Shown here: positions 18,925-36,331 of the stretch, in pieces | Layout: every line of letters begins with the position of its first letter | How positions within the stretch are numbered: position 1 is the first letter of the stretch | Assembly (NCBI GenBank): GCA_964505765.1 | Contig: CAZDJQ010000002.1 | Coordinates: 1 to 36,619, forward strand | DNA from: an uncultured Gammaproteobacteria bacterium | Lineage (GTDB): Bacteria; Patescibacteriota; Microgenomatia; UBA12405; JAHJSD01 | Reading direction: 5' to 3' | DNA length: 36,619 bases | Program-made: the position numbers and the translations under genes | The notes under the pieces: generated by a model | What the model was told of the DNA's origin: nothing | What the model saw: the letters and a program-made list of their open reading frames with translations, nothing else | Database searches by the model: none

Positions 18925-18948
18925 CTCCACGATCGTTGAGGTAAATTT
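18917..18948. repeat. right copy of the 32-nt near-palindrome
   Basis: AAATTTAACTCCACGATCGTTGAGGTAAATTT contains the paralog-2 stop codon (18922-18924) and ends on the first base of the prfA stop codon. Confidence 0.85.
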
Positions 18949-19628
18949 TACTTTATAAGGTGGAGATTGCCGTCTAGGACTTCTTCTAGTTGACGGGTCT
19001 TTTTATTCGTCCGATGATCAGTCACTCGATTTTGCTGAAAGTTATATGTCCTGATTTTATCCGACCGCCGCCCTCTTCCTGCTTTTTTCCTTATATTCCC
19101 CATATAGCCCTTCTTCTTAGCTTGTTTCCGCTCCCACATTTTACTAGCAAGCAGCTGCAAAGCAATCAGCCTGTTTTTCTGCTGACTTCTTTCTCTCTGA
19201 CACTCGACCGTTATTCCGGTTGATTTATGTTTAAGCCGGACTGCAGTCGATACTTTATTTACATTTTGACCGCCGGCACCGCCCGAGCGAAAAAACTCCC
19301 ACTCCAAATCCTCTTCTTTTATTTCTCCTTGGTTGACAATAACCTTAGGCATAACTACAACTACGGCAGTTGAAGTGTGAGTCCGACCGTGTTTTTCAGT
19401 TGCCGGCACCCGTTGAACTCGATGGGTTCCTGTTTCATTTCTCAACTCCAAAAAAGCATTTTTACCAACTACTTTAAGTTGTGATTCATCAATTTTACCT
19501 ACTTTCCAAGAGTTATTTTGGGCATAACGAAAATACATCCGGAATAGATCTTTAGCCCAAATTTTGGCCTCAGTTCCACCGGCACCAGGCTGAATCTCAA
19601 TAATAGCGATATTGGGGTTGATTTTCAT
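18948..19628 (-). CDS. prfA: peptide chain release factor 1, short form lacking the N-terminal domain 1
   Basis: 226 aa with RVPATE...GRTHTS (PxT-type codon recognition, hence RF1 rather than RF2), GGQ ([11 protein letters not shown]) and [17 protein letters not shown]. It starts 2 nt after the rpmE stop. Confidence 0.88.
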
Positions 19629-19888: not shown

Positions 19889-19896
19889 AGCTGTTT

Positions 19897-19905
19897 ATTA
19901 TAACA
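19897..19905 (-). promoter_or_regulatory. extended -10 element TGTTATAAT upstream of rpmE
   Basis: The reverse complement of 19897-19905 is TGTTATAAT, which lies 8 nt upstream of the rpmE ATG. Confidence 0.45.
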
Positions 19906-19929: not shown

Positions 19930-20445
19930 TCAGAAATCTCTATACCCTAAAGATTCTACAGGCCCCATACTACTCTGATACTTTCCATCATACAAAGTTA
20001 TTTCACCTATTGTCTCCCAAAAACTAACTTGCCCGATTAACATCCCTGGATATATTTTAACAGGCTGTACTGCATGCAACATTAAAGTCCACCTGTTTAT
20101 TGAGCCAATATCAATCAATCCTGCTGTTATATGTATAAAAAGCCCTAGTCTTCCAGTTGAAGATCTCCCCCTGATGATTGGAACATACTTTTTACTACCC
20201 ATAATTTCTTTTGTACAACCCAAATATAATGTATCAGGTTTTAATACAAAGCCTGATTTTGGGATTTTTATACTTTTAGTGGGGTTATGTTTTTTAGCAT
20301 CTAACATTTTATTCTTATAAACTTTAATTTCATTACCAAGTTGAAAATCATAAGAGTTTGTATCTAAGTTAGATTTATCAAAAGGATTAATAACTATATC
20401 CCCTTCACTAACTCTTTTCGCTATTTCGTTTCCTGTTAAAATCAT
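19930..20445 (-). CDS. dCTP deaminase/dUTPase-superfamily protein, paralog B (catalytic Glu position is Met)
   Basis: 171 aa with GRSSTGRLGL, LIDIG and a WTLML segment where Dcd has the (V/T)LE catalytic Glu. The C-terminal YDGKYQ lid motif is present. Confidence 0.8.
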   Translation of the reverse strand: MILTGNEIAKRVSEGDIVINPFDKSNLDTNSYDFQLGNEIKVYKNKMLDAKKHNPTKSIKIPKSGFVLKPDTLYLGCTKEIMGSKKYVPIIRGRSSTGRLGLFIHITAGLIDIGSINRWTLMLHAVQPVKIYPGMLIGQVSFWETIGEITLYDGKYQSSMGPVESLGYRDF

Positions 20446-20976
20446 TTAAGTATTAAACTCCTTATAAAAACTACTTGGATATGGTCGAGAAAATTGCTTA
20501 TAAAAACCATTATACAATTCTTTAGGATCCCCCTTATTTACCCAAAAACTAACTTGCCCAATTTTCATATGGGGATAAATTCTCAGAGGCTGGACTACTT
20601 TTAATTCTAAAGTCCAACAATGTAACGTCCCCACATGTCCTAAATCAGCTGTTATTTGTAAAAACAATCCCAACCTCCCAACCGAAGATCTCCCTAACAA
20701 AATAGTTGTATATTTATTACTACCGATTTGTTCAAAAGTTCTTGCCAAATAAAGATTTCCCGGCATTAATTTATAACCATCTTCGTCATCTATAATTACC
20801 TTCTCAAACTTGGCCCTTTTAGCAGAATCTAAAGACTGACCTTTCTTTAACTTTAATATTTCTGGAGCCAAACGATAGTTATAACTATTTGGATTAACTA
20901 ATTTTTTATTAAAAGGCTCTATTGTAATATTTCCCTTTTTGTTTTCCTGTTTTATTTGATTACCTGTTAAAATCAT
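20446..20976 (-). CDS. dCTP deaminase/dUTPase-superfamily protein, paralog A (Glu retained)
   Basis: 176 aa with GRSSVGRLGL and WTLEL (Glu present). The IDPG Asp position reads His (ADLGHVG) in my by-eye alignment. Confidence 0.8.
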   Translation of the reverse strand: MILTGNQIKQENKKGNITIEPFNKKLVNPNSYNYRLAPEILKLKKGQSLDSAKRAKFEKVIIDDEDGYKLMPGNLYLARTFEQIGSNKYTTILLGRSSVGRLGLFLQITADLGHVGTLHCWTLELKVVQPLRIYPHMKIGQVSFWVNKGDPKELYNGFYKQFSRPYPSSFYKEFNT

Positions 20977-20978
20977 TT

Positions 20979-21800
20979 TTAAAAAAGCTCTACAAATCTT
21001 TTACCATAAAAATCTTTTCGATAACGGTGAACAAGAACATTATAGTTTTGATAATCCCTTAGAATATTTGACATCTCTTTAATTTCGTATAAACGCTGAT
21101 ACAGAACTTCTCTAATTTCGTTGTCTTTAATTTCCATATTTGAGCAAACTCGATCAATTGTAGAGTTACAATAAAATTTTAATTCATTTTCTGTTTCCTT
21201 AAGTATTTTATTGCGATCCTCATATATCAACTCTAAGTTTGAATAAATTTTCATAACTTCTTTATACCCCTCTTGCGTTATCTCAAAATTAAAGATTTTT
21301 TTCGCCTGATTAATTAAATTATTTGGAATTTTATCAACAATATAAAATTCACAAGAAAGTATATAACCTGGAGATTCTAACCATTTTATACATCGGTCAA
21401 TCATTGCCTGAGGGTTTGAAAAAAAGCGCAAAGCCGCCCCAAATATTATATGTGTAAATTTATTTTTAGGTTCAAAAAGATAACCATCTTGTATTTTGTA
21501 TTCGATATTTAAGTTATTGAAATGCTCGGATTTAATTCTATTAGCTGCCTTTATAGAAGTACTTGAAACATCTATTCCCAATCCCTTACAACTTGTTAAA
21601 AACGCTAATTCTCTCAAACTAAACCCTGTCGTACATCCAACTTCTAGAATAATAGATTTTTTATCTACATTCCCGAACTTTGCCCATTTATTAACAGTAG
21701 AAAAAGCACCAGGAGGAACATTCCATTGATTTATAAAGCCAACAAAATCTGTATATGAAAGGCTTTCAATAAATTCAGGTGTCAAGTCCTTTTTATTCAT
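20979..21800 (-). CDS. class I SAM-dependent methyltransferase
   Basis: 273 aa with motif I ILEVGCTTG and post-I GIDVS, plus a helical C-terminal extension. Confidence 0.8.
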   Translation of the reverse strand: MNKKDLTPEFIESLSYTDFVGFINQWNVPPGAFSTVNKWAKFGNVDKKSIILEVGCTTGFSLRELAFLTSCKGLGIDVSSTSIKAANRIKSEHFNNLNIEYKIQDGYLFEPKNKFTHIIFGAALRFFSNPQAMIDRCIKWLESPGYILSCEFYIVDKIPNNLINQAKKIFNFEITQEGYKEVMKIYSNLELIYEDRNKILKETENELKFYCNSTIDRVCSNMEIKDNEIREVLYQRLYEIKEMSNILRDYQNYNVLVHRYRKDFYGKRFVELF

Positions 21801-23117
21801 TTAATTTTCTTCAAATAAATCTTTTAAGGAATCTTTATCACTGGAACTCAAATTCGGATGACCAAAATTTATAAAAGAGTTAATGACCCCCATGAAAATA
21901 TCAGGGTTACCAAAACCCTTTCTTTTAGCACTCTTTCTAATTATCTTTCTCTTTTTTTCCTCAGAATACACAGGATTCTTTAAAATTTGGGTAAAAGAAA
22001 GCATAAAGCTCTCCATTCTTCTATTTGCACTTTTCCCCTTCCTTTTTAATTTATCAAGACTAGCTTCTCTCTTAGGAGACACTGTTTCTCTTTCTAATTG
22101 ATCAGCTATCAAATCTCCTGTTTCTTCAACCAATCTACGGAGCGTATCTCCATCAACATTTAGTAACGAAGATAAAATAGTAACACCATTAGCATATTTT
22201 TCTAAGGATCTTTCCAAGCTCCTATATCCACAATTAAAATAAACACCTGTTTCTAACATGGCAGAAATAGCATTAATAGCATCAACAAACCTGAGTTGCG
22301 CTGGATTTAAAATATCTGAACTAAATTCTTCCACTTTGGAAACCTTCATATAAGCAGGAGAAACATAAATTGGATGTTCTAATCCCAAGATCCTTGATGT
22401 CAAAGTTTCCAACCCAAATCCCCACTCTACTGCTAATTCTTCATTTCCTTTTAAAATTAAAACCACATTTCCTATCTCTTGGAATCCATCTTCAGTAAGA
22501 ACATCAATCGTTACCCCTTCACCAAAAACATTATCTATGCCATATTCCCAGTTATAATAATCGATTAAGTCATCTGCTCTTCTAACTCCATTGGGAACTT
22601 GAAGTTCTTTTATTCTAGTTCGAAATTCTGAAGAAAAATGAACCTGTAATTCACCTGGTAGTAGCTTCAAGCTATCAGTTAAAAATATACTTGCTTCATC
22701 TAGAACTTCCTGTAATCGGCCCGGAGGAGTTAAAACCCCTCCCATCGTGAAATAACTTCCAAATTTAGGATGCATCAAAGTCTTATAAATATCAGAAGCA
22801 TTGTGAGTTCTCAAACAAGGCTGAACTGTTGCTATTCCTCTCTCTGGCAACTCCTTAGCTTTTAAATATTCCTTCCAGCCATTTATTGTAGCTCCAGTAA
22901 AACACACTGTTTCATCAATTTCCCCAGGAATTAAAGGAATTGAGTCTACAATTTCATATCCATTTAAATCATAGAAATTCGCAAATTTGGACTCCACTAA
23001 ATTTCTAATTTGTAGATCTTCATCTCCCACAATTTCTCTTGACTTGATTTCATCTCTTATATAAGGTAATTCACTTTGAGCTGTTTGTCCCCTGGTTACT
23101 TGTTTTCTTTCTATCAT
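21801..23117 (-). CDS. alanyl-tRNA-synthetase-like class IIc catalytic-core paralog (no editing or C-Ala domains)
   Basis: 438 aa. CFTGATINGWKEYL, QPCLRTHN, FTMGG, EIGNVVLI and WGFGLETL are collinear with the AlaRS motifs LFTNAGMNQFK, QRCVRAGGKHN, FEMLGNFSFG, EIWNIVFMQ and TGMGLERI. The C-terminal tail is basic. Confidence 0.7.
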   Translation of the reverse strand: MIERKQVTRGQTAQSELPYIRDEIKSREIVGDEDLQIRNLVESKFANFYDLNGYEIVDSIPLIPGEIDETVCFTGATINGWKEYLKAKELPERGIATVQPCLRTHNASDIYKTLMHPKFGSYFTMGGVLTPPGRLQEVLDEASIFLTDSLKLLPGELQVHFSSEFRTRIKELQVPNGVRRADDLIDYYNWEYGIDNVFGEGVTIDVLTEDGFQEIGNVVLILKGNEELAVEWGFGLETLTSRILGLEHPIYVSPAYMKVSKVEEFSSDILNPAQLRFVDAINAISAMLETGVYFNCGYRSLERSLEKYANGVTILSSLLNVDGDTLRRLVEETGDLIADQLERETVSPKREASLDKLKRKGKSANRRMESFMLSFTQILKNPVYSEEKKRKIIRKSAKRKGFGNPDIFMGVINSFINFGHPNLSSSDKDSLKDLFEEN

Positions 23118-24106
23118 TTTTCTACAAAGTTTAAACTTATTTCATCTGGCTTTTGAGCCGTTAAAGAACAAAACCCCCCGTTAGGAATAGTAAAAAGAGG
23201 ATCTGTGTGGCCAAAATTCAAATCATAAACAATTGGAATATCAACTGTTCGAGTAATTCTTTCAAGGATATTATCTAAAATCTCATAATTAACATTTGAT
23301 TCACTAGCAAATTTACCAATAAGTAAGGCATTAACTTTATTAAAAACACCCATTTGACCTAACTGTGTTAAAAACCTATCAATCCATTTAAGTTTAAAAT
23401 CTTCAGCTTCCTCAATAAATAAAATCTTATTATCTAATTCTGGGAAAAATTTAGTATTGGCTAAACTTAAAAATGTACAGAGGTTGGAAGCAACTATCCT
23501 CCCTTCTTCTTTCCCTGCATTATATACCCTTGAGCCGCGATTGTGCTGAATAATTCGATGATCGTCATCCTCTCGTAAAAAATATAGATCATCTGCGAAA
23601 ATATCAGAATCTGAAATTTCAATCTCTTTTGAATTATCAATACAAACTTTTTTAAAATATTCCCAAGTATATTTAAAAGGATCAGGTTTTGAAAAACTAA
23701 TCACACTTGGTCCCATATAGGTTACTAAACCAGTTTTATTAGTAATGGACTGCAATAAAGAACATACATCAGAAAAACCAATAAAAATTTTAGGATTGTT
23801 TTTTATCAAATTGTAGTCTAAACAATCGAGAATTTGATTTGTATTTAATCCTCCCCAAAAACTCATAATACAACTAATCTCTTCATCTTCTACAAATTCA
23901 TGTACTGCTTTAACTCTATCCTTAATTGTCCCCGCGGTATAATTATGAGTTTTTCTGCATTGTGGATGTTCTATTACCTCATATCCTTTTCTCTCTAGAT
24001 AACGATAACCTTTTCTTATTTGACTATCTTCCAAAATAGAGATTGGCGTTGACGGTGCAATCACACCTATCTTGTCACCCTTTTTCAATTTAGGAGGATA
24101 AAACAT
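23114..24106 (-). CDS. S66-family peptidase (LD-carboxypeptidase / MccF-like)
   Basis: GDKIGVIAPS, IGFSDV (nucleophile Ser), LFIEEAED and NFGHTDP (His). I moved the start to Met26 of the track ORF (ATG at 24106) because the longer ORF overlaps the htrA 3' end. Confidence 0.82.
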   Translation of the reverse strand: MFYPPKLKKGDKIGVIAPSTPISILEDSQIRKGYRYLERKGYEVIEHPQCRKTHNYTAGTIKDRVKAVHEFVEDEEISCIMSFWGGLNTNQILDCLDYNLIKNNPKIFIGFSDVCSLLQSITNKTGLVTYMGPSVISFSKPDPFKYTWEYFKKVCIDNSKEIEISDSDIFADDLYFLREDDDHRIIQHNRGSRVYNAGKEEGRIVASNLCTFLSLANTKFFPELDNKILFIEEAEDFKLKWIDRFLTQLGQMGVFNKVNALLIGKFASESNVNYEILDNILERITRTVDIPIVYDLNFGHTDPLFTIPNGGFCSLTAQKPDEISLNFVEK

Positions 24107-24115
24107 AGTGGAGCT

Positions 24116-24124
24116 ATTATAACA
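24116..24124 (-). promoter_or_regulatory. extended -10 element TGTTATAAT upstream of the five-gene operon
   Basis: The reverse complement of 24116-24124 is TGTTATAAT. It lies 9 nt upstream of the ATG at 24106 and 2 nt downstream of the htrA stop. Confidence 0.45.
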
Positions 24125-24126
24125 TA

Positions 24127-25257
24127 CTAATCTCTTTGGCCGAGTCTGACCGTCTCTTTTATGGTTTCGCCGTCTCGCCAATACTCAATCTCAATTGAGT
24201 CGCCAACTTTCTTTTGGTTGATAATTTCAGCAATACTCTTTCCGTCAACCACGATTCTTTCCCCGTCCAAATGGGTTAAAATATCCCCCTCTTGCAGTCC
24301 GGCCTGGTCAGCACTTGATCCCGAAACTACTCCCCGGATATAAGCTCCTTGCGGCAGTTCATTTAAAATCGCCGCATTTTCAGAAATCATCTGATACTCA
24401 ATCCCTAGAAATGCCCGTTCAAATTCGCCGGTCTCATAAAAAACCTCTAAACTTTGTTTAACCAGATTAATCGGTAAAGCAAAGCCGATATTCTCGGCTC
24501 CGCCGGCGACGGCAACGTTAACCCCCACCACCTGGCCGGCAGAATTAAGCAGCGGACCGCCGGAATTTCCGGGATTAATTGCGGCATCGGTTTGGATTAC
24601 GTTATCTAATTCTTCAATATAGCCCTGCAGTGGTGAAGCCGCCCTGACTCCCCGGCCCAGGCCGGAAATAACGCCGGTAGTGATCGTATGACGATATTGA
24701 CCCAGGGCAGTCCCAATCGCAATCGCTAACTGCCCTACCTGCAGTTGGTCAGAATCTCCCAATTCCAACGGTTCAAGATTAGTCTCCACCTTTAAAATTG
24801 CCAAATCATTAACCGGATCACGATAGATATCTTCAACTTCATAGACCTCTTCTTGTTCCGTTAAAATCCGATAGTCGGCGGCATTATCAGAAACTACGTG
24901 TTTATTGGTAACAATTAATCCCTGATCCACTACAAACCCACTGCCGATATTTTGTTCTATTGTTCTTTCTTCTGTTTTTATCCCAAAAAAACCAAACAAA
25001 GGAACTTGTTCGGTTTTGGAAACTGAAACGGTAACTACGGAAGGAGAAGTTTTTTCAGCAACTTCGATAATTACCGATTCTTCTCTCAATACTTTCTTTT
25101 CAATATAGCTTGTCCCCCCGGACTCAGACTGCCGGATCACTCGGTCTAAAAACGGCAGATAACCTAATCGGGCCAAAATTCCGCCGGCAATTAAGCCAAC
25201 CACTAAAGCCAATCCCACTCCTAAACCGGCTAAAAAATATTTTGTTTTCCGCATCAT
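24127..25257 (-). CDS. htrA: HtrA/DegP-family serine protease with one PDZ domain
   Basis: 376 aa with an N-terminal TM segment, the catalytic triad motifs TNKHV, DLAILK and GNSGGPL, and a C-terminal PDZ domain. Confidence 0.93.
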   Translation of the reverse strand: MMRKTKYFLAGLGVGLALVVGLIAGGILARLGYLPFLDRVIRQSESGGTSYIEKKVLREESVIIEVAEKTSPSVVTVSVSKTEQVPLFGFFGIKTEERTIEQNIGSGFVVDQGLIVTNKHVVSDNAADYRILTEQEEVYEVEDIYRDPVNDLAILKVETNLEPLELGDSDQLQVGQLAIAIGTALGQYRHTITTGVISGLGRGVRAASPLQGYIEELDNVIQTDAAINPGNSGGPLLNSAGQVVGVNVAVAGGAENIGFALPINLVKQSLEVFYETGEFERAFLGIEYQMISENAAILNELPQGAYIRGVVSGSSADQAGLQEGDILTHLDGERIVVDGKSIAEIINQKKVGDSIEIEYWRDGETIKETVRLGQRD

Positions 25258-33561: not shown

Positions 33562-34257
33562 TTAAAACGCCATCACTGTAGATAATAATAACATAATTAT
33601 TCCGCCTACTCCCAATATAATCAACGGAGTTTCTACTCCTGCTTCCGGCAGCTCGCTGGCAGTCGCCGTTGATTCCGTTGTGGTGGAAACTTCGTCCTCT
33701 TCCGTTGTTGATTCCGTTGTTGATTCTGTTGTTGTTGTAGAATCTTCCTCCTCGGATTGCCCGCCGATCGAGTATGAGCCACTGCCGTTGGAAGCACAAT
33801 CAATTAAATTGTTGCCGGACGGGTCCCAGATGCCGGAATCCAGTGAACTGTCGTCTTCACATAAAAAAGAAGCACTGGCTTCACCACTGCTCTGAGCTTC
33901 AAAAGTAATTGTCCCCAAATCTCCTTCACCGGACACCGGTTCCAAGTGGACTTCCGTCATTCCCCATAATGTCACCCTGCCTTCTGAATTATCAATTTCA
34001 TAACTGAACTCAGGGAAAAAATCTCCTTCCACAACTTGATTGACTTTCAATCTTGTCGCATCAAAACTGATTGCTGCGTCTGCGGCTGACGCTTCTTCTT
34101 CTCCGGTGTCTATTTTGACGACCACTTCAAAACTGTCTCCGACAACCTGATCTCCGCTTGACGGATCAAAATAAAATCTCGGGGTAGCGTAAACAGCTGA
34201 GGCCGATACCGCAAATAAGCCGAAAATTAAACCGGAAATTAAAAAAATCTTGCGCAT
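33562..34257 (-). CDS. cohesin-domain surface protein with a Thr/Glu/Ser linker and an LPEAG plus hydrophobic C-terminus
   Basis: 231 aa with a signal peptide and cohesin-like FEVVVKIDTGEEEASAADAAISFDATRLKV. The linker TTTTESTTESTTEE is encoded by 12-nt tandem repeats at 33704-33739. The C-terminus is LPEAG followed by a TM segment. Confidence 0.75.
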   Translation of the reverse strand: MRKIFLISGLIFGLFAVSASAVYATPRFYFDPSSGDQVVGDSFEVVVKIDTGEEEASAADAAISFDATRLKVNQVVEGDFFPEFSYEIDNSEGRVTLWGMTEVHLEPVSGEGDLGTITFEAQSSGEASASFLCEDDSSLDSGIWDPSGNNLIDCASNGSGSYSIGGQSEEEDSTTTTESTTESTTEEDEVSTTTESTATASELPEAGVETPLIILGVGGIIMLLLSTVMAF

Positions 34258-34259
34258 TT

Positions 34260-34847
34260 TTACCTAATTATCAAACTCAAATCTTTTGTTTGAAAAGAAT
34301 AGTCTATCCCCTGTCCAACTAAATTTGTTTCGGCGGTCTGATCCTTTTTTATCCGGAAGCTGGTTTCTCCTGCCTGTTTGGCTTGATAGGTTAAAGTTAA
34401 TAACGTGGCTTCTTGGCCTGCTTCAAAAGTAACCATATTATCTAATTGCACCAAGGTTACTAAAACTCGCTCATTTTCCGGTTCAATCCAGTTTCGACCG
34501 ACTTCTGAAAACCGTCCCGAGGGATTGGCTTCCAAGATTTCAATATAAGCCGGATCATATTCAATCAGAATATCGACTCCATCTAAAGCTAATTGCTCAT
34601 CCGGAGTCATAACCACCCTTAACTGATTTTCTTCATCCACTTCAACTGTATTTTCCCCTACTAAAGAAAGTTGAGTTTCCCGCTTGTCTTCGGGTTGTAA
34701 ACTGGTTGGCAGACTTCTATCCGCTGCCCCCCAGTTACCGCTTCTCTGTTCAGAAAGCTTTTGAACAATAATTACACTCTCAATAATTACTAACACTGCT
34801 AAAAGCGGAACCAGCCACTTAGCGCTTACTATCTTTTTAAAATCCAT
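34260..34847 (-). CDS. membrane-anchored cohesin-like domain protein
   Basis: 195 aa with an N-terminal TM segment and LDGVDILIEYDPAYIEILE...TLLTLTYQAKQAGETSF, resembling a cohesin beta-sandwich. Confidence 0.65.
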   Translation of the reverse strand: MDFKKIVSAKWLVPLLAVLVIIESVIIVQKLSEQRSGNWGAADRSLPTSLQPEDKRETQLSLVGENTVEVDEENQLRVVMTPDEQLALDGVDILIEYDPAYIEILEANPSGRFSEVGRNWIEPENERVLVTLVQLDNMVTFEAGQEATLLTLTYQAKQAGETSFRIKKDQTAETNLVGQGIDYSFQTKDLSLIIR

Positions 34848-34900
34848 ATTTGCTCCTTACTTAACTAACTATATAATTAAATCCGCCCTCTTTGCAAGGA

Positions 34901-36331
34901 CTAAATTTCATCTCCGTACCGAGTACTCAAAGTTTCTAAGAAAAAGACTATGTCTTGAGTGTTAACTATTCCGTTCCGGTTCAAGTCCTCCGAAACATTT
35001 CTCCCTCTTTTGCCTAAAGCGGCTTTTAAAAGGGTATAATCAGCGGCATTGACTTTCCCGTCGCGATTTATATCGCCGGGCTTGAGTCTCAAGCCGGTCC
35101 AATCAAAACCGTTTTCGCCCGAACTTAAAGTTAAACTCCCCTCATCCAACCGGCAGTAATCGGTCTGATTGTCCCAACAAAAACGCCGGGCCAAATGCAC
35201 CGGTCCTTTAATCAGGGCCGAATAATTATCACCGGGGGTAATTCCAATTAAAGTCAGCCCTCCGGTTCCAACCGCTTGGTCATCAAAGCTAACCACAATA
35301 TCCTGATAAACCTGTCGGTGACCTTGGCCGGCAACTGTTACATCCACCGTTTGATCCGGAATATCGCTAATAATAACCTGACGATTGCCGGCTTCATATT
35401 CCGTTCCTTCAAATTTAATTTGGAACGTCATTTCCGGCCAACCCACCCCTTCACAGTCAAACTCTTGTTTATTACACAAACGATAGTTATCACACGAGCC
35501 TTGTTCATTCGAATCCAAACCAGTATGATACTCATACCGCCAACAAGTATTGCTTTCATTTTCATTTAACCTTACCGACTCTAAAACTAATTTTTTCCCG
35601 GGGGTAATAACTTGAGCACAAACCTCATCAGCTTCAGGACAACCTAAACAACTGGTCGGCCAATCGACATTAGTGTTTTCCACCACGCCGATCTTATCTT
35701 TGCTAATACTTAAATCCTCAGCCATGTCATTTATAAAACAGTCAGGATAAACATCACCGCAGTCAACGACTTTAATCTGGGCAACAACCTGCTCGGGATT
35801 ATTAATTTCCAATCCCCGGTCGACATCAACGTCATCGCTGTAACGAACCCCGCCGACATCATAATCCTGCAACTTTAATTGAAACTCGCCCTGCTTTTGA
35901 CCGATAAAACTGATTTCAACTAAATCAAAAACATCAGTCGGAACCGTTTGTTTCATTGTTAAGGCACTTAATCTTATTTCTCCTTGTTCGGCTATTTCCG
36001 GAATCCAAATGCTGGCCCCGTAATCCTGGTGAAAAGATAATTGGTCAACACTGACCAGGTCATTATCAAACTGGAACCTTAATTCCGCCGCCTGGATCTC
36101 AGCCGTCTCCGGAGCATTTTCAGGACGGGGATCAACTTTAACCAAAATTTTCCCAACTTCGCCTTCACATATTTCTAAAGGCTGGGGATACAAACTAACA
36201 TCAATATTACTGTAAGCCGCTTTTCTTCTAAGCTCTGTCCTTTGCTGAAGCAGTACCCCGCCCGCCAATAAACCGGCGGCCGCCATCAAAATTGCGACTA
36301 AACTTAATGCTCGTTTTCTTTGTTTATTCAT
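34901..36331 (-). CDS. large surface protein: N-terminal cohesin-like domain, Cys-rich middle, C-terminal type-I-like dockerin
   Basis: 476 aa with an N-terminal TM segment. Two Ca-binding dockerin repeats are present: GDINRDGKVNAADYTLLKAAL and DLNRNGIVNTQDIVFFLETL. Confidence 0.78.
   Translation of the reverse strand: MNKQRKRALSLVAILMAAAGLLAGGVLLQQRTELRRKAAYSNIDVSLYPQPLEICEGEVGKILVKVDPRPENAPETAEIQAAELRFQFDNDLVSVDQLSFHQDYGASIWIPEIAEQGEIRLSALTMKQTVPTDVFDLVEISFIGQKQGEFQLKLQDYDVGGVRYSDDVDVDRGLEINNPEQVVAQIKVVDCGDVYPDCFINDMAEDLSISKDKIGVVENTNVDWPTSCLGCPEADEVCAQVITPGKKLVLESVRLNENESNTCWRYEYHTGLDSNEQGSCDNYRLCNKQEFDCEGVGWPEMTFQIKFEGTEYEAGNRQVIISDIPDQTVDVTVAGQGHRQVYQDIVVSFDDQAVGTGGLTLIGITPGDNYSALIKGPVHLARRFCWDNQTDYCRLDEGSLTLSSGENGFDWTGLRLKPGDINRDGKVNAADYTLLKAALGKRGRNVSEDLNRNGIVNTQDIVFFLETLSTRYGDEI

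What the first reader, a model, noticed from the sequence alone, without database searches (positions are those of the whole stretch)
21801..23117. Stand-alone, motif-altered AlaRS catalytic-core paralog
The 438-aa ORF is collinear by eye with the class IIc AlaRS aminoacylation core: FANFYDLNGYEIVDSIPLIP...CFTGATINGWKEYL, QPCLRTHN, FTMGG, EIGNVVLI, WGFGLETL. It ends near residue 440 with a Lys/Arg-rich helical tail, so it has no editing domain and no C-Ala domain. Normally invariant positions are changed (NAGM to GATI; AGGKHNDL to THNASDI). This argues against a plain housekeeping enzyme and for an altered substrate or acceptor. Free-standing AlaRS catalytic cores are rare compared with AlaX editing-domain paralogs.
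Basis: partly seen in the sequence, partly recalled or inferred. Interest (0 to 1): 0.6.

Follow-up and report, generated by a model that had tools for sequence, protein, structure and literature searches.

The report
AlaRS-like enzyme in aminoacyl-nucleotide cassette
The ORF is a real, shortened and re-tooled relative of alanyl-tRNA synthetase, and it belongs to a horizontally inserted five-gene cassette, apparently undescribed, that most likely makes and cleaves an amino-acid-linked pyrimidine nucleotide of the microcin C / agrocin 84 / ascamycin type.

Summary
A 438-aa ORF on the minus strand (21801-23117) has the AlaRS aminoacylation and tRNA-recognition domains (VIA Z 26-27) and no editing or C-Ala domain. 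It is not a split or housekeeping AlaRS, because a normal alaS lies on another contig.

It is not stand-alone. It is gene 2 of a fixed cassette: MccF-like S66 peptidase, AlaRS-like, MccD-like SAM transferase, and two complementary dCTP-deaminase-like proteins.

The cassette is a clean 4.2-kb low-GC insertion between htrA and rpmE, flanked by a 10-bp direct repeat. It was not found in 60 close relatives.

The family has at least 178 clusters at 50% identity. It keeps the motif-2 Arg, the adenine-stacking Phe, and Asn. It never has the class II motif-3 Arg, and it carries the same Asp-to-Glu change as AcmF, the Ala-tRNA-dependent transferase of ascamycin.

In 27 neighbourhoods, 25 hold an S66 peptidase, 20 an MccD-like gene and 18 the DCD pair. 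Variant neighbourhoods add MccE-like and agrocin-like parts.

Best reading (about 0.55): the enzyme forms an aminoacyl-nucleotide amide bond, probably from aminoacyl-tRNA. I found no paper describing the cassette. This scan has met the same cassette family before on other genomes.

The parts
23114..24106 (-). MccF-like S66 serine peptidase (330 aa). The true start is the ATG at 24106. The ORF finder's TTG at 24181 overlaps htrA.
   Evidence: Pfam Peptidase_S66 plus S66C. Best PDB hits are MccF-like BA_5613 (E=1e-58), Lmo1638, and B. anthracis and E. coli MccF (about 1e-46), against LdcA at 1e-10. The Ser118/Glu243/His311 triad of E. coli MccF is conserved in 12/12 cassette copies. The adenine-stacking Trp186 is Leu/Met in 9 of the 11 AlaRS-like-cassette copies and Trp in the other 2, as in the agrocin-cluster S66. 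The start was read from the sequence.
21801..23117 (-). AlaRS-derived enzyme with aminoacylation and tRNA-recognition domains only (438 aa, P0001). This is the finding itself.
   Evidence: Family residue census. Its ATG overlaps the S66 stop (ATGA), which indicates translational coupling.
20979..21800 (-). MccD-like class I SAM-dependent transferase (273 aa)
   Evidence: PDB 5fcd 'MccD' at E=7e-30, aligned over residues 4-259 of 273. The next methyltransferase scores E=9e-4. It is 30% identical over 95% of its length to the methyltransferase inside the ThiF-MFS-MTase-GNAT-S66 (mccBCDEF) operon of E. coli ATCC 25922 plasmid. More distant relatives sit in the agrocin-84-type cluster and in a Streptomyces aaRS-like/S66 cluster.
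20446..20976 (-). DCD1, a dCTP-deaminase-fold protein. It keeps the deaminase Glu (E. coli E138) but lacks His121 (Gln) and the motif-III Asp128 (His/Gln/Asn).
   Evidence: Pfam DCD 111 bits. PDB dCTP deaminases. The residue pattern is identical in 15/15 cassettes.
19930..20445 (-). DCD2, a dCTP-deaminase-fold protein. It keeps His121 and Asp128, but the deaminase Glu138 is Met (Gln in some relatives).
   Evidence: Pfam DCD 136 bits. PDB. Residue pattern in 15/15 cassettes. A third, canonical dcd carrying H, D and E together lies elsewhere on the contig.
24115..24124 (-). Left copy of the 10-bp direct repeat TGTTATAATA, at the htrA-side border of the insertion
   Evidence: The 10-mer occurs only twice in the window (0.11 expected), once at each cassette border.
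19896..19905 (-). Right copy of the 10-bp direct repeat TGTTATAATA, just upstream of rpmE
   Evidence: The same-genus relative has a single copy between htrA and rpmE.

Best explanation
P0001 is the aminoacyl-ligating enzyme of a mobile five-gene cassette. The cassette builds, decorates and can cleave an aminoacyl-nucleotide antimetabolite, that is, a stable mimic of an aminoacyl-adenylate like processed microcin C, the agrocin 84 warhead or ascamycin.

Proposed flow, with what is shown and what is inferred:
1. The complementary DCD1/DCD2 pair converts a cytosine (deoxy)nucleotide into the nucleotide moiety. This is inferred. That the nucleotide carries a P-NH2 group is speculation.
2. The AlaRS-like enzyme binds that nucleotide in the old adenylate pocket and transfers an aminoacyl group onto its amino group. 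The donor is most likely aminoacyl-tRNA, as AcmF does for ascamycin. This is inferred from retained and lost residues and from the retained tRNA-recognition domain.
3. The MccD-like enzyme alkylates the product with a SAM-derived group (3-amino-3-carboxypropyl or methyl). This is inferred from homology.
4. The MccF-like peptidase cleaves the aminoacyl-nucleotide amide bond, giving self-protection or control. This is inferred from homology and an intact triad.

Shown directly: the fold, the residue pattern, the gene linkage, and the horizontal insertion.
For: FOLD: AlaRS-type with both domains.

RESIDUES: Across 150 family representatives (gene numbering, equal to literature numbering +1), the motif-2 Arg and Gln66 are kept in 150/150. 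The stacking Phe91 is kept in 149/150, Asn213 in 136/150 and Gly240 in 149/150. The motif-3 Arg243 is never Arg (Thr in 108/150). Asp236 is Glu in 138/150.

AcmF PARALLEL: AcmF is a 370-aa AlaRS-like protein with the same two domains. It has lost ATP and Ala-activation residues and has the same Asp-to-Glu change (Glu232, essential). It uses an Arg, a Phe and a Glu in the old pocket, and it transfers Ala from Ala-tRNA to the sulfamoyl NH2 of a nucleoside (PMC12945691; length from PMC4257720).

LINKAGE: 27 neighbourhoods of family members were examined. An S66 peptidase is present in 25, an MccD-like gene in 20 and the DCD pair in 18. Gene order is fixed in the 13 closest.

VARIANTS: Some add a PLP decarboxylase (MccE N-domain type) or a GNAT fused to the AlaRS-like protein (MccE C-domain type). 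Others add full or core-only class IIb aaRS copies, a class IIa aaRS-like gene, or an ABC exporter.

MTase: It is a full-length MccD homologue. The plasmid contexts I inspected for this MTase family were one E. coli mcc operon, one agrocin-84-type plasmid cluster and one Streptomyces cluster with an aaRS-like gene and an S66 gene.

S66: It is closer to MccF than to LdcA, and its triad is intact.

DCD PAIR: It is complementary in 15/15 cassettes and is additional to a canonical dcd.

ACCESSORY STATUS: GC is 0.29-0.35 against 0.38-0.44 in the surroundings. Four relatives have htrA directly followed by rpmE. A 10-bp direct repeat flanks the insertion. The gene was found in 0/60 nearest relatives and 6/400 genomes of the phylum.
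Against: No biochemical data exist for any member.

I could not obtain the AcmF sequence, so direct homology beyond the shared AlaRS origin is untested.

Unlike AcmF (N219Q), the family keeps the Asn. In this subfamily an invariant Arg sits four residues after the lost motif-3 Arg (Arg in only 76/150 family-wide). That Arg could rescue ATP binding, so adenylate formation is not excluded.

This window's cassette has no exporter, no precursor peptide, no MccB (no ThiF in the genome, which is 91.7% complete) and no decarboxylase. It is therefore unclear how a toxin would leave the cell or why a 0.83-Mb genome would keep it.

Nothing shows which amino acid, which nucleotide or which linkage is involved. 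The role of the DCD pair is the weakest link.
Confidence: 0.55

Rival explanations
1. P0001 is still an adenylate-forming enzyme. It activates an amino acid with ATP or another NTP, perhaps a pyrimidine nucleotide supplied by the DCD pair. It then passes the amino acid to a non-tRNA acceptor, or the aminoacyl-NMP is itself the pathway intermediate. No aminoacyl-tRNA is involved.
For: The motif-2 Arg, the stacking Phe, the Glu/Asp of the EIGN strand, Asn213 and the two motif-3 glycines are retained. This subfamily has an invariant Arg242 one helical turn after the lost motif-3 Arg. Agrocin-type clusters are thought to use aaRS-core enzymes such as AgnA for the nucleotide linkage (PMC8323819).
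Against: The motif-3 Arg is invariant in class II synthetases (established knowledge). It is absent in 150/150 family members, and the downstream Arg is present in only 76/150. The Asp-to-Glu change matches the non-activating AcmF. The whole helical tRNA-recognition domain is kept, which an enzyme acting only on small molecules would not need.
Confidence: 0.2
2. The cassette is a resistance or detoxification island against foreign aminoacyl-nucleotide antibiotics, not a producer. The S66 enzyme cleaves the drug. The AlaRS-like protein acts as a decoy that binds the drug, or as a drug-insensitive spare synthetase.
For: Stand-alone MccF homologues confer McC resistance (PMC8323819). Spare aaRS copies are known immunity devices (AgnB2). 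This cassette has no exporter. The AlaRS-like protein evolves faster (31-42% identity) than its neighbours (46-69%) across the same loci, as a protein in an arms race might.
Against: MccD is a biosynthetic enzyme, not an immunity enzyme, and it is kept in 20/27 neighbourhoods. The fixed, complementary DCD pair has no role in resistance. A protein lacking the motif-3 Arg, the editing domain and C-Ala is unlikely to replace AlaRS. The genome keeps its normal alaS.
Confidence: 0.12
3. The cassette modifies a nucleic acid rather than making a free metabolite. The AlaRS-like protein docks on tRNA and aminoacylates a modified base, as GluQ-RS does. The MccD-like enzyme adds an acp or methyl group, the DCD proteins act on cytosine, and S66 is the eraser.
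For: The tRNA-recognition domain is retained, and the C-terminal part is net basic in 64% of the family. The MTase has weak tRNA-methyltransferase hits (TrmB 30 bits; a PHROG 'tRNA methyltransferase'). Transfer of acp to RNA bases is known chemistry (established knowledge).
Against: The MTase matches MccD full-length at 1e-30, against 1e-7 for TrmB over only its N-terminal part. S66 enzymes are known only on small peptides and nucleotides. dCTP-deaminase-fold enzymes are known to act on free nucleotides. The companions in variant cassettes (spare aaRS, GNAT, PLP decarboxylase, ABC exporter) fit an antibiotic cluster, not an RNA-modification pathway.
Confidence: 0.08
4. It is one half of a split housekeeping AlaRS, or a decaying pseudogene copy.
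For: It is short and diverged. The Pfam score is barely above threshold.
Against: A separate alaS with catalytic and editing parts is present. The ORF is intact and conserved with a fixed partner set in many lineages. It is absent from 60 relatives that live without it. Active-site positions are invariant across 150 representatives.
Confidence: 0.01

Closest known systems
AcmF, the AlaRS-like alanyl-tRNA-dependent transferase of ascamycin biosynthesis (Streptomyces sp. 80H647 / JCM9888; PMC12945691, PMC4257720)
   Same: Both are truncated to the aminoacylation and tRNA-recognition domains (370 aa against 320-440 aa here). Both have lost ATP-activation residues. Both carry Glu in place of the alpha-amino-binding Asp. 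Both keep the Arg/Phe/Glu of the adenylate pocket. Both are paired with a hydrolase that reverses the bond (AcmE there, S66 here). The product class is an aminoacyl-nucleoside mimic of an aminoacyl-adenylate.
   Different: Sequence relationship to AcmF was not tested because no sequence was available. Asn212 is kept here but is Gln in AcmF. The partner hydrolase is an unrelated fold (S66 against alpha/beta hydrolase). There are no sulfamate-forming genes here. The partners are MccD-like and DCD-like proteins, so the acceptor is probably a pyrimidine nucleotide, not a sulfamoyl adenosine.
Microcin C operon mccABCDEF of E. coli
   Same: There are homologues of MccD (30% identity, full length) and of MccF (intact Ser-Glu-His triad). 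Sister cassettes also carry MccE-like PLP decarboxylase and GNAT modules.
   Different: There is no MccA peptide, no MccB ThiF-type adenylyltransferase (none in the genome) and no MccC pump. An AlaRS-like enzyme and a DCD pair take their place. Trp186 of MccF, which stacks on adenine, is Leu here.
Agrocin 84 (agn) cluster of pAgK84-type plasmids, and the agrocin-like actinobacterial clusters of PMC8323819
   Same: Both combine an aaRS-derived enzyme, an adjacent MccD-family SAM enzyme and an S66 peptidase. Sister cassettes of this family carry the same AsnA-like class IIb core and a class IIa aaRS-like gene.
   Different: The agn clusters use AsnA-like and ProRS-like enzymes, not an AlaRS-like one. 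They have no DCD pair, and they carry a resistant LeuRS and an exporter. The window's MTase is more distant from AgnB1 (22% identity) than from MccD (30%).
AlaRS catalytic fragment (E. coli AlaRS441, A. aeolicus AlaRS453; PDB 3hxu, 1riq)
   Same: Same two-domain fold (Z 26-27). Motifs are collinear. The motif-2 Arg, the stacking Phe and Asn212 are retained.
   Different: Identity is 15-18%. The motif-3 Arg is lost, Asp235 is Glu, and Trp211 (literature numbering) is Gly. NAGM is replaced by G(S/A)(T/H/S)I. It scores far below the alaS equivalog cut-off (31 against 457 bits).
dCTP deaminase and bifunctional dCTP deaminase-dUTPase (E. coli Dcd, M. tuberculosis and M. jannaschii DCD-DUT)
   Same: DCD1 and DCD2 have the same fold and keep Arg110, Ser111, Arg115, Ala124 and Tyr171.
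   Different: The canonical enzyme combines His121, Asp128 and Glu138 in one chain. Here they are split: Glu138 occurs only in DCD1, and His121 and Asp128 only in DCD2. This holds in 15/15 cassettes.

Membership tests
Alanyl-tRNA synthetase (class IIc; Pfam tRNA-synt_2c, TIGR00344 alaS) | Score above the curated family thresholds | tested here: inconclusive
   Pfam scores 32.3 against 30.3 bits, over 87 residues only. The TIGR00344 equivalog scores 31 against 457 bits, so it is not met.
Alanyl-tRNA synthetase (class IIc; Pfam tRNA-synt_2c, TIGR00344 alaS) | Aminoacylation domain plus helical tRNA-recognition domain fold | tested here: met
   VIA Z 26-27 with 367-378 residues aligned, spanning model residues 20-438. 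Other class II enzymes reach Z about 15 over the core only. Foldseek E=1e-12.
Alanyl-tRNA synthetase (class IIc; Pfam tRNA-synt_2c, TIGR00344 alaS) | Class II motif-3 arginine (GxGxER), needed for ATP binding | tested here: not met
   The sequence is EWGFGLET, with Thr in place of Arg. None of the 150 family representatives has Arg there. This genome's own AlaRS and E. coli AlaRS both have Arg.
Alanyl-tRNA synthetase (class IIc; Pfam tRNA-synt_2c, TIGR00344 alaS) | Asp235 (E. coli) holding the alpha-amino group of alanine | tested here: not met
   It is Glu in P0001 and in 138/150 of the family.
Alanyl-tRNA synthetase (class IIc; Pfam tRNA-synt_2c, TIGR00344 alaS) | Editing domain and C-Ala domain | tested here: not met
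   The protein ends at residue 438 inside the helical domain. The genome's real alaS has the editing part.
Alanyl-tRNA synthetase (class IIc; Pfam tRNA-synt_2c, TIGR00344 alaS) | Asn/Asp pair reading the G3:U70 base pair of tRNA(Ala) | tested here: inconclusive
   The columns aligned to E. coli N303/D400 are not conserved in the family. However, the MAFFT alignment of the helical domain is gappy and unreliable.
AcmF-type AlaRS-like aminoacyl-tRNA-dependent transferase | Truncation to the aminoacylation and tRNA-recognition domains | tested here: met
   AcmF is described in PMC12945691.
AcmF-type AlaRS-like aminoacyl-tRNA-dependent transferase | Asp-to-Glu change at the alpha-amino binder (Glu232, essential in AcmF) | tested here: met
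   Glu231 in P0001. Glu in 138/150 of the family.
AcmF-type AlaRS-like aminoacyl-tRNA-dependent transferase | Asn-to-Gln change (N219Q) and general loss of ATP and Ala-activation residues | tested here: inconclusive
   Asn is kept (136/150), so that point is not met. The motif-3 Arg, Trp212 and NAGM are lost, so that point is met.
AcmF-type AlaRS-like aminoacyl-tRNA-dependent transferase | Sequence clustering with AcmF itself, and aminoacyl-tRNA-dependent activity | not testable with these tools
   No AcmF sequence could be fetched. The activity needs a bench assay.
Microcin C-type (mcc) peptide-nucleotide system | MccA precursor peptide and MccB ThiF-type nucleotidyltransferase | tested here: not met
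   No ThiF-family match in the genome, which is 91.7% complete. Gaps between cassette genes are 0-41 nt, leaving no room for a peptide gene.
Microcin C-type (mcc) peptide-nucleotide system | MccD homologue (SAM-dependent 3-amino-3-carboxypropyl transferase) | tested here: met
   PDB 5fcd at E=7e-30, full length. It matches the mccD position of the E. coli ATCC 25922 plasmid operon. The group transferred was not tested.
Microcin C-type (mcc) peptide-nucleotide system | MccF homologue with the Ser-Glu-His triad | tested here: met
   The adenine-stacking Trp186 is not conserved (Leu).
dCTP deaminase / DCD-DUT | His121, Asp128 and Glu138 (E. coli numbering) together in one chain | tested here: not met
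   DCD1 has Q, H and E at these positions. DCD2 has H, D and M. The genome's third dcd and E. coli Dcd have H, D and E.

The most novel reading that the evidence does not exclude
The cassette would be a peptide-free, tRNA-dependent route to an N-acyl-phosphoramidate pyrimidine nucleotide. The DCD1/DCD2 heteromer would deaminate dCTP and use the released ammonia, instead of water, to attack the alpha-phosphate, giving a deoxyuridine 5'-phosphoramidate. The AlaRS-like enzyme would then acylate that P-NH2 from aminoacyl-tRNA, and the MccD-like enzyme would alkylate the phosphate. That would be a new way to make a P-N bond and a new class of aaRS-targeting antimetabolite, made by ultra-small symbiotic bacteria.
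Probability: 0.1. Interest if true: 0.9.

Novelty: new variant of a known kind. Interest (0 to 1): 0.72.

Why it matters
Only three natural routes to aminoacyl-adenylate mimics are understood at all: microcin C, agrocin 84 and ascamycin.

This cassette joins parts of all three (MccD, MccF, an AcmF-like AlaRS derivative) to a unique split dCTP-deaminase pair. It has no ThiF enzyme and no peptide, so it should encode new enzymology and probably a new nucleotide antimetabolite.

It would extend the newly found class of aaRS-derived aminoacyl-tRNA-dependent transferases from one Streptomyces example to a family of at least 178 sequence clusters. Named members seen here come from Patescibacteria lineages and one Bacteroidales MAG. 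Feature-based Atlas leads also point to Actinomycetota, Pseudomonadota and Bacillota.

It also shows that genome-reduced Patescibacteria pick up and keep such cassettes, which bears on how they compete with or control their hosts.

Tried and rejected
- SPLIT OR HOUSEKEEPING AlaRS: rejected. A separate alaS is present, and 0/60 relatives have the paralog.
- ANTI-PHAGE DEFENCE: PADLOC gave no hit for four of the five proteins, and only a generic methyltransferase hit for the fifth. PHROGs added nothing specific.
- LdcA-TYPE MUREIN RECYCLING FOR S66: less likely, because LdcA structures score 1e-10 against 1e-58 for MccF-like proteins.
- PLASMID OR PHAGE CARRIAGE OF P0001: tblastn found no match at 1e-8 in 72,556 plasmids or 50,697 phages.
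- TAXONOMIC RANGE: a second word-indexed search with an 80-sequence profile returned only 6 proteins, because the candidate list was swamped. It gave no names.
- GENOME-CONTIG SCAN: it used narrow peptide patterns and returned only 7 loci, all Patescibacteria lineages.
- AcmF SEQUENCE: it could not be fetched. The Streptomyces plasmid 'amino acid--tRNA ligase-related protein' next to an MccD-like gene is an AsnA-like class IIb core, not an AlaRS-like protein (hhalign probability 0.2%; Pfam).
- Complex prediction: not used. A DCD1/DCD2 pass would follow from likeness to solved homotrimers, and I make no other binding claim.
- PROMOTER AND TERMINATOR SCAN OF THE CASSETTE: no more sites than in shuffled sequence.
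- LITERATURE: no paper in the library holds both 'MccF' and 'dCTP deaminase'. None holds 'dCTP deaminase' with 'nucleoside antibiotic' and 'gene cluster'. 'AlaRS-like' returns only the AcmF review.
Full report
**1. Observation**

The window has a 438-aa ORF at 21801-23117, on the minus strand. The plus strand is closed.

Sequence-level similarity to AlaRS is real but weak:
- Pfam tRNA-synt_2c scores 32.3 bits (cut-off 30.3), over residues 41-127 only.
- The alaS equivalog model scores 31 bits against a cut-off of 457.
- The best PDB sequence hit is the A. aeolicus AlaRS fragment, at E=2e-3.

The fold settles the question. I built an AF2 model on six family sequences (pLDDT 79.5, pTM 0.80). It aligns to the catalytic fragments of human, E. 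coli and A. aeolicus AlaRS at Z 26-27. Between 367 and 378 residues align, spanning model residues 20-438. That covers both the aminoacylation domain and the helical tRNA-recognition domain. Other class II synthetases reach only Z about 15, on the core alone. There is no editing or C-Ala domain.

**2. Not a split or spare housekeeping enzyme**

The genome is 0.83 Mb in 52 contigs and 91.7% complete. Contig C1 carries a normal alaS with catalytic and editing parts (602 bits). None of 60 genomes from the same genus, family and order has a relative of P0001 at E<=1e-10. Only 6 of 400 genomes sampled across the phylum do.

**3. The gene is part of a cassette**

The five minus-strand genes between htrA and rpmE abut or overlap:
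- An S66 peptidase (23114-24106; the true ATG was read).
- P0001.
- A class I SAM enzyme (20979-21800).
- Two dCTP-deaminase-fold proteins (20446-20976 and 19930-20445).

The same genes in the same order occur in every close relative I could place on a contig. These are L004, L008, L014, L015, L016 and L019-L021. In L022-L025 the S66 gene lies on the other strand.

Across these loci the AlaRS-like protein is the fastest-evolving member, at 31-42% identity. The S66 enzyme is 46-64% identical where it is co-linear with the other genes. The SAM enzyme is 49-69% identical and the second DCD 61-69%.

**4. Horizontal insertion**

The cassette has 0.29-0.35 GC, against 0.38-0.44 around it. In four relatives (one same genus, three same family) the order is SSB-orf169-CtpA-HtrA-rpmE-short RF, with htrA directly followed by rpmE.

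In the same-genus relative, the spacer between htrA and rpmE holds one copy of TGTTATAATA. In the window that 10-mer occurs exactly twice, once at each border of the 4.2-kb insertion (24115-24124 and 19896-19905). By chance 0.11 copies are expected.

The rest of the window is housekeeping: HisRS, DnaB, YebC, S6, SSB, CysRS, DnaX and YbeY.

**5. What the partners are**

*The SAM enzyme.* It is a full-length homologue of MccD (PDB 5fcd, E=7e-30, residues 4-259). The next methyltransferase in the PDB scores 9e-4. Against 72,556 plasmids it finds 41 records. I opened three of them:
- The E. coli record lies in the ThiF-MFS-MTase-GNAT-S66 operon, that is mccBCDEF.
- The Agrobacterium record lies in a pAgK84-type agrocin 84 cluster. 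There the match is the methyltransferase between an AsnA-like aaRS core and the resistant LeuRS, and an S66 peptidase lies downstream.
- The Streptomyces record lies in a cluster with an aaRS-like core, a class IIa aaRS-like gene and an S66 peptidase.

MccD and the MccE N-terminal domain install the aminopropyl decoration on microcin C in a SAM-dependent step that releases methylthioadenosine. MccF cleaves the aminoacyl-nucleotide amide bond (PMC8323819).

*The S66 protein.* It is much closer to MccF-type proteins (1e-58 to 1e-46) than to LdcA (1e-10). It keeps the Ser118/Glu243/His311 triad of E. coli MccF. Trp186, which stacks on adenine in MccF, is Leu or Met in 9 of the 11 AlaRS-like-cassette copies examined. 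This would fit a different base, but that is inference.

*The two DCD proteins.* They are an ancient, orthologously conserved pair, and they are additional to a canonical dcd elsewhere on the contig. In 15 of 15 cassettes the first has Gln121, His/Gln/Asn128 and Glu138. The second has His121, Asp128 and Met/Gln138. E. coli Dcd and this genome's own dcd unite His, Asp and Glu in one chain.

From established knowledge of the dUTPase superfamily, Glu138 is the deaminase catalytic residue. Asp128 is the motif-III Asp of dUTPases. I did not test these roles here. The pair therefore looks like two half-competent subunits, either of one hetero-oligomer or of two successive, non-canonical steps.

**6. 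The wider family**

An exhaustive profile search found 178 clusters (50% identity) at E<1e-30. All of the best 150 are shorter than a full-length AlaRS (115-520 aa, mostly 300-440). Only 1680 hits reach E<=1e-3, so the family is well separated from genuine AlaRS. Where named, NCBI calls them 'alanine--tRNA ligase-related protein', from Bacteroidales and Saccharimonadales MAGs. Located members come from Patescibacteria, Dojkabacteria and Saccharibacteria. ESM Atlas neighbours suggest Actinomycetota, Pseudomonadota and Bacillota as well, but that is a lead only.

I examined 27 neighbourhoods in all. An S66 peptidase is present in 25. The two exceptions are a 3-kb contig and a locus with transposase genes beside the cassette. 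An MccD-like gene is present in 20 and the DCD pair in 18.

Variant cassettes add:
- a PLP decarboxylase (as in the MccE N-domain);
- a GNAT fused to the AlaRS-like protein (as in the MccE C-domain);
- one to three extra class IIb synthetases, or AsnA-like cores (as AgnA);
- a class IIa aaRS-like gene;
- an HD hydrolase;
- an ABC exporter.

The constant core is the AlaRS-like enzyme plus the MccF-like peptidase, a maker and a breaker.

**7. Active site**

I aligned 150 family representatives with E. coli AlaRS and with this genome's own AlaRS. Gene numbering here equals literature numbering +1.

| Position | In the family |
|---|---|
| Gln66 | kept 150/150 |
| Motif-2 Arg70 | kept 150/150 |
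| Phe91 | kept 149/150 |
| Asn213 | kept 136/150 |
| Gly240 | kept 149/150 |
| Motif-3 Arg243 | never Arg (Thr 108/150) |
| Asp236 | Glu 138/150 |
| Trp212 | Gly 145/150 |
| NAGM | G(S/A)(T/H/S)I |

The pattern keeps what touches the aminoacyl-adenylate and loses what holds the ATP triphosphate. This is what has been described for AcmF. AcmF is a 370-aa AlaRS-like protein with the same two domains. It has lost activation residues and has an essential Glu232 in place of the Asp. It takes Ala from Ala-tRNA and puts it on the sulfamoyl NH2 of dealanylascamycin bound in the old adenylate pocket (PMC12945691; PMC4257720).

There are caveats. AcmF's Asn-to-Gln change is not shared. In this subfamily an invariant Arg lies four residues after the lost one. 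I could not obtain the AcmF sequence.

**8. Mechanism proposed**

*Shown:* fold, residue pattern, linkage and insertion.

*Inferred:* the DCD pair supplies a modified pyrimidine nucleotide. The AlaRS-like enzyme acylates an amino group on it, probably from aminoacyl-tRNA. The MccD-like enzyme alkylates it. The S66 enzyme hydrolyses the acyl-amide bond for self-protection or control.

*Speculative:* the acceptor is a nucleoside 5'-phosphoramidate, made when ammonia from deamination replaces water in the dUTPase-type step.

*Weak points:* this cassette has no exporter, peptide, MccB or decarboxylase. The amino acid, base and linkage are unknown.

**9. Novelty**

No paper in the library combines MccF with dCTP deaminase, or describes AlaRS-like proteins other than AcmF. 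The 2021 review of Trojan-horse aaRS inhibitors mentions neither AlaRS nor deaminases.

This scan has already met the same cassette family on other genomes and reached similar readings. I treated those notes as leads and re-derived the points above on this window. I rate it a new variant of a known kind, an aminoacyl-nucleotide antimetabolite system with an undescribed enzyme set.

Noticed in passing
window 18948-19628 (-): A 226-aa release-factor-1-like ORF lacks the first ~105 residues (domain 1). It matches prfA model positions 106-333 only. It sits right after rpmE and is conserved in the same place, at 67-87% identity, in four relatives. A second, full-length RF-like frame lies on contig C13.
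   Followed up: partly
L063:16266-17324 (A. tumefaciens pAt3, pAgK84-type plasmid): The agrocin 84-type cluster encodes an S66 peptidase with the MccF triad and the adenine-stacking Trp186. The 2021 review lists only the pump and the resistant LeuRS as immunity genes, so this could be a third self-protection gene.
   Followed up: no
G000 contig C1:43296-45026 (L001/L002): The genome's genuine alaS is a 629-aa frame that matches the alaS model only up to position 690 of 847, so it seems to lack the C-Ala domain. Its motif-2 loop reads TGDIEEVG instead of AGGKHNDL. A separate 595-aa frame on C27 matches only the AlaRS editing region (42 bits).
   Followed up: no
L055:6090-13037 and L056:4773-10310 (two Patescibacteria genomes): A second cassette type has the order methyltransferase, AlaRS-like, S66, then an AsnA-like class IIb core. 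In L055 an HD hydrolase and a 'Bact_hydrolase' lie upstream and an ABC-transporter ATPase downstream. There is no DCD pair. It looks like a hybrid of the present cassette and the agrocin-type cluster.
   Followed up: partly
L016:3407-4237: In a Saccharimonadales cassette, a DUF1826 protein is inserted between the S66 gene and the AlaRS-like gene.
   Followed up: no
window 33562-36331 (-): Adjacent ORFs with a cohesin domain (231 aa) and a type I dockerin domain (476 aa) occur in a 0.83-Mb genome.
   Followed up: no
window 21903-21919: A perfect 6-bp-stem hairpin (AGGGTT-loop-AACCCT) followed by a T-rich run lies inside the 3' part of the AlaRS-like ORF. It scores as terminator-like on both strands, probably by chance.
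   Followed up: no
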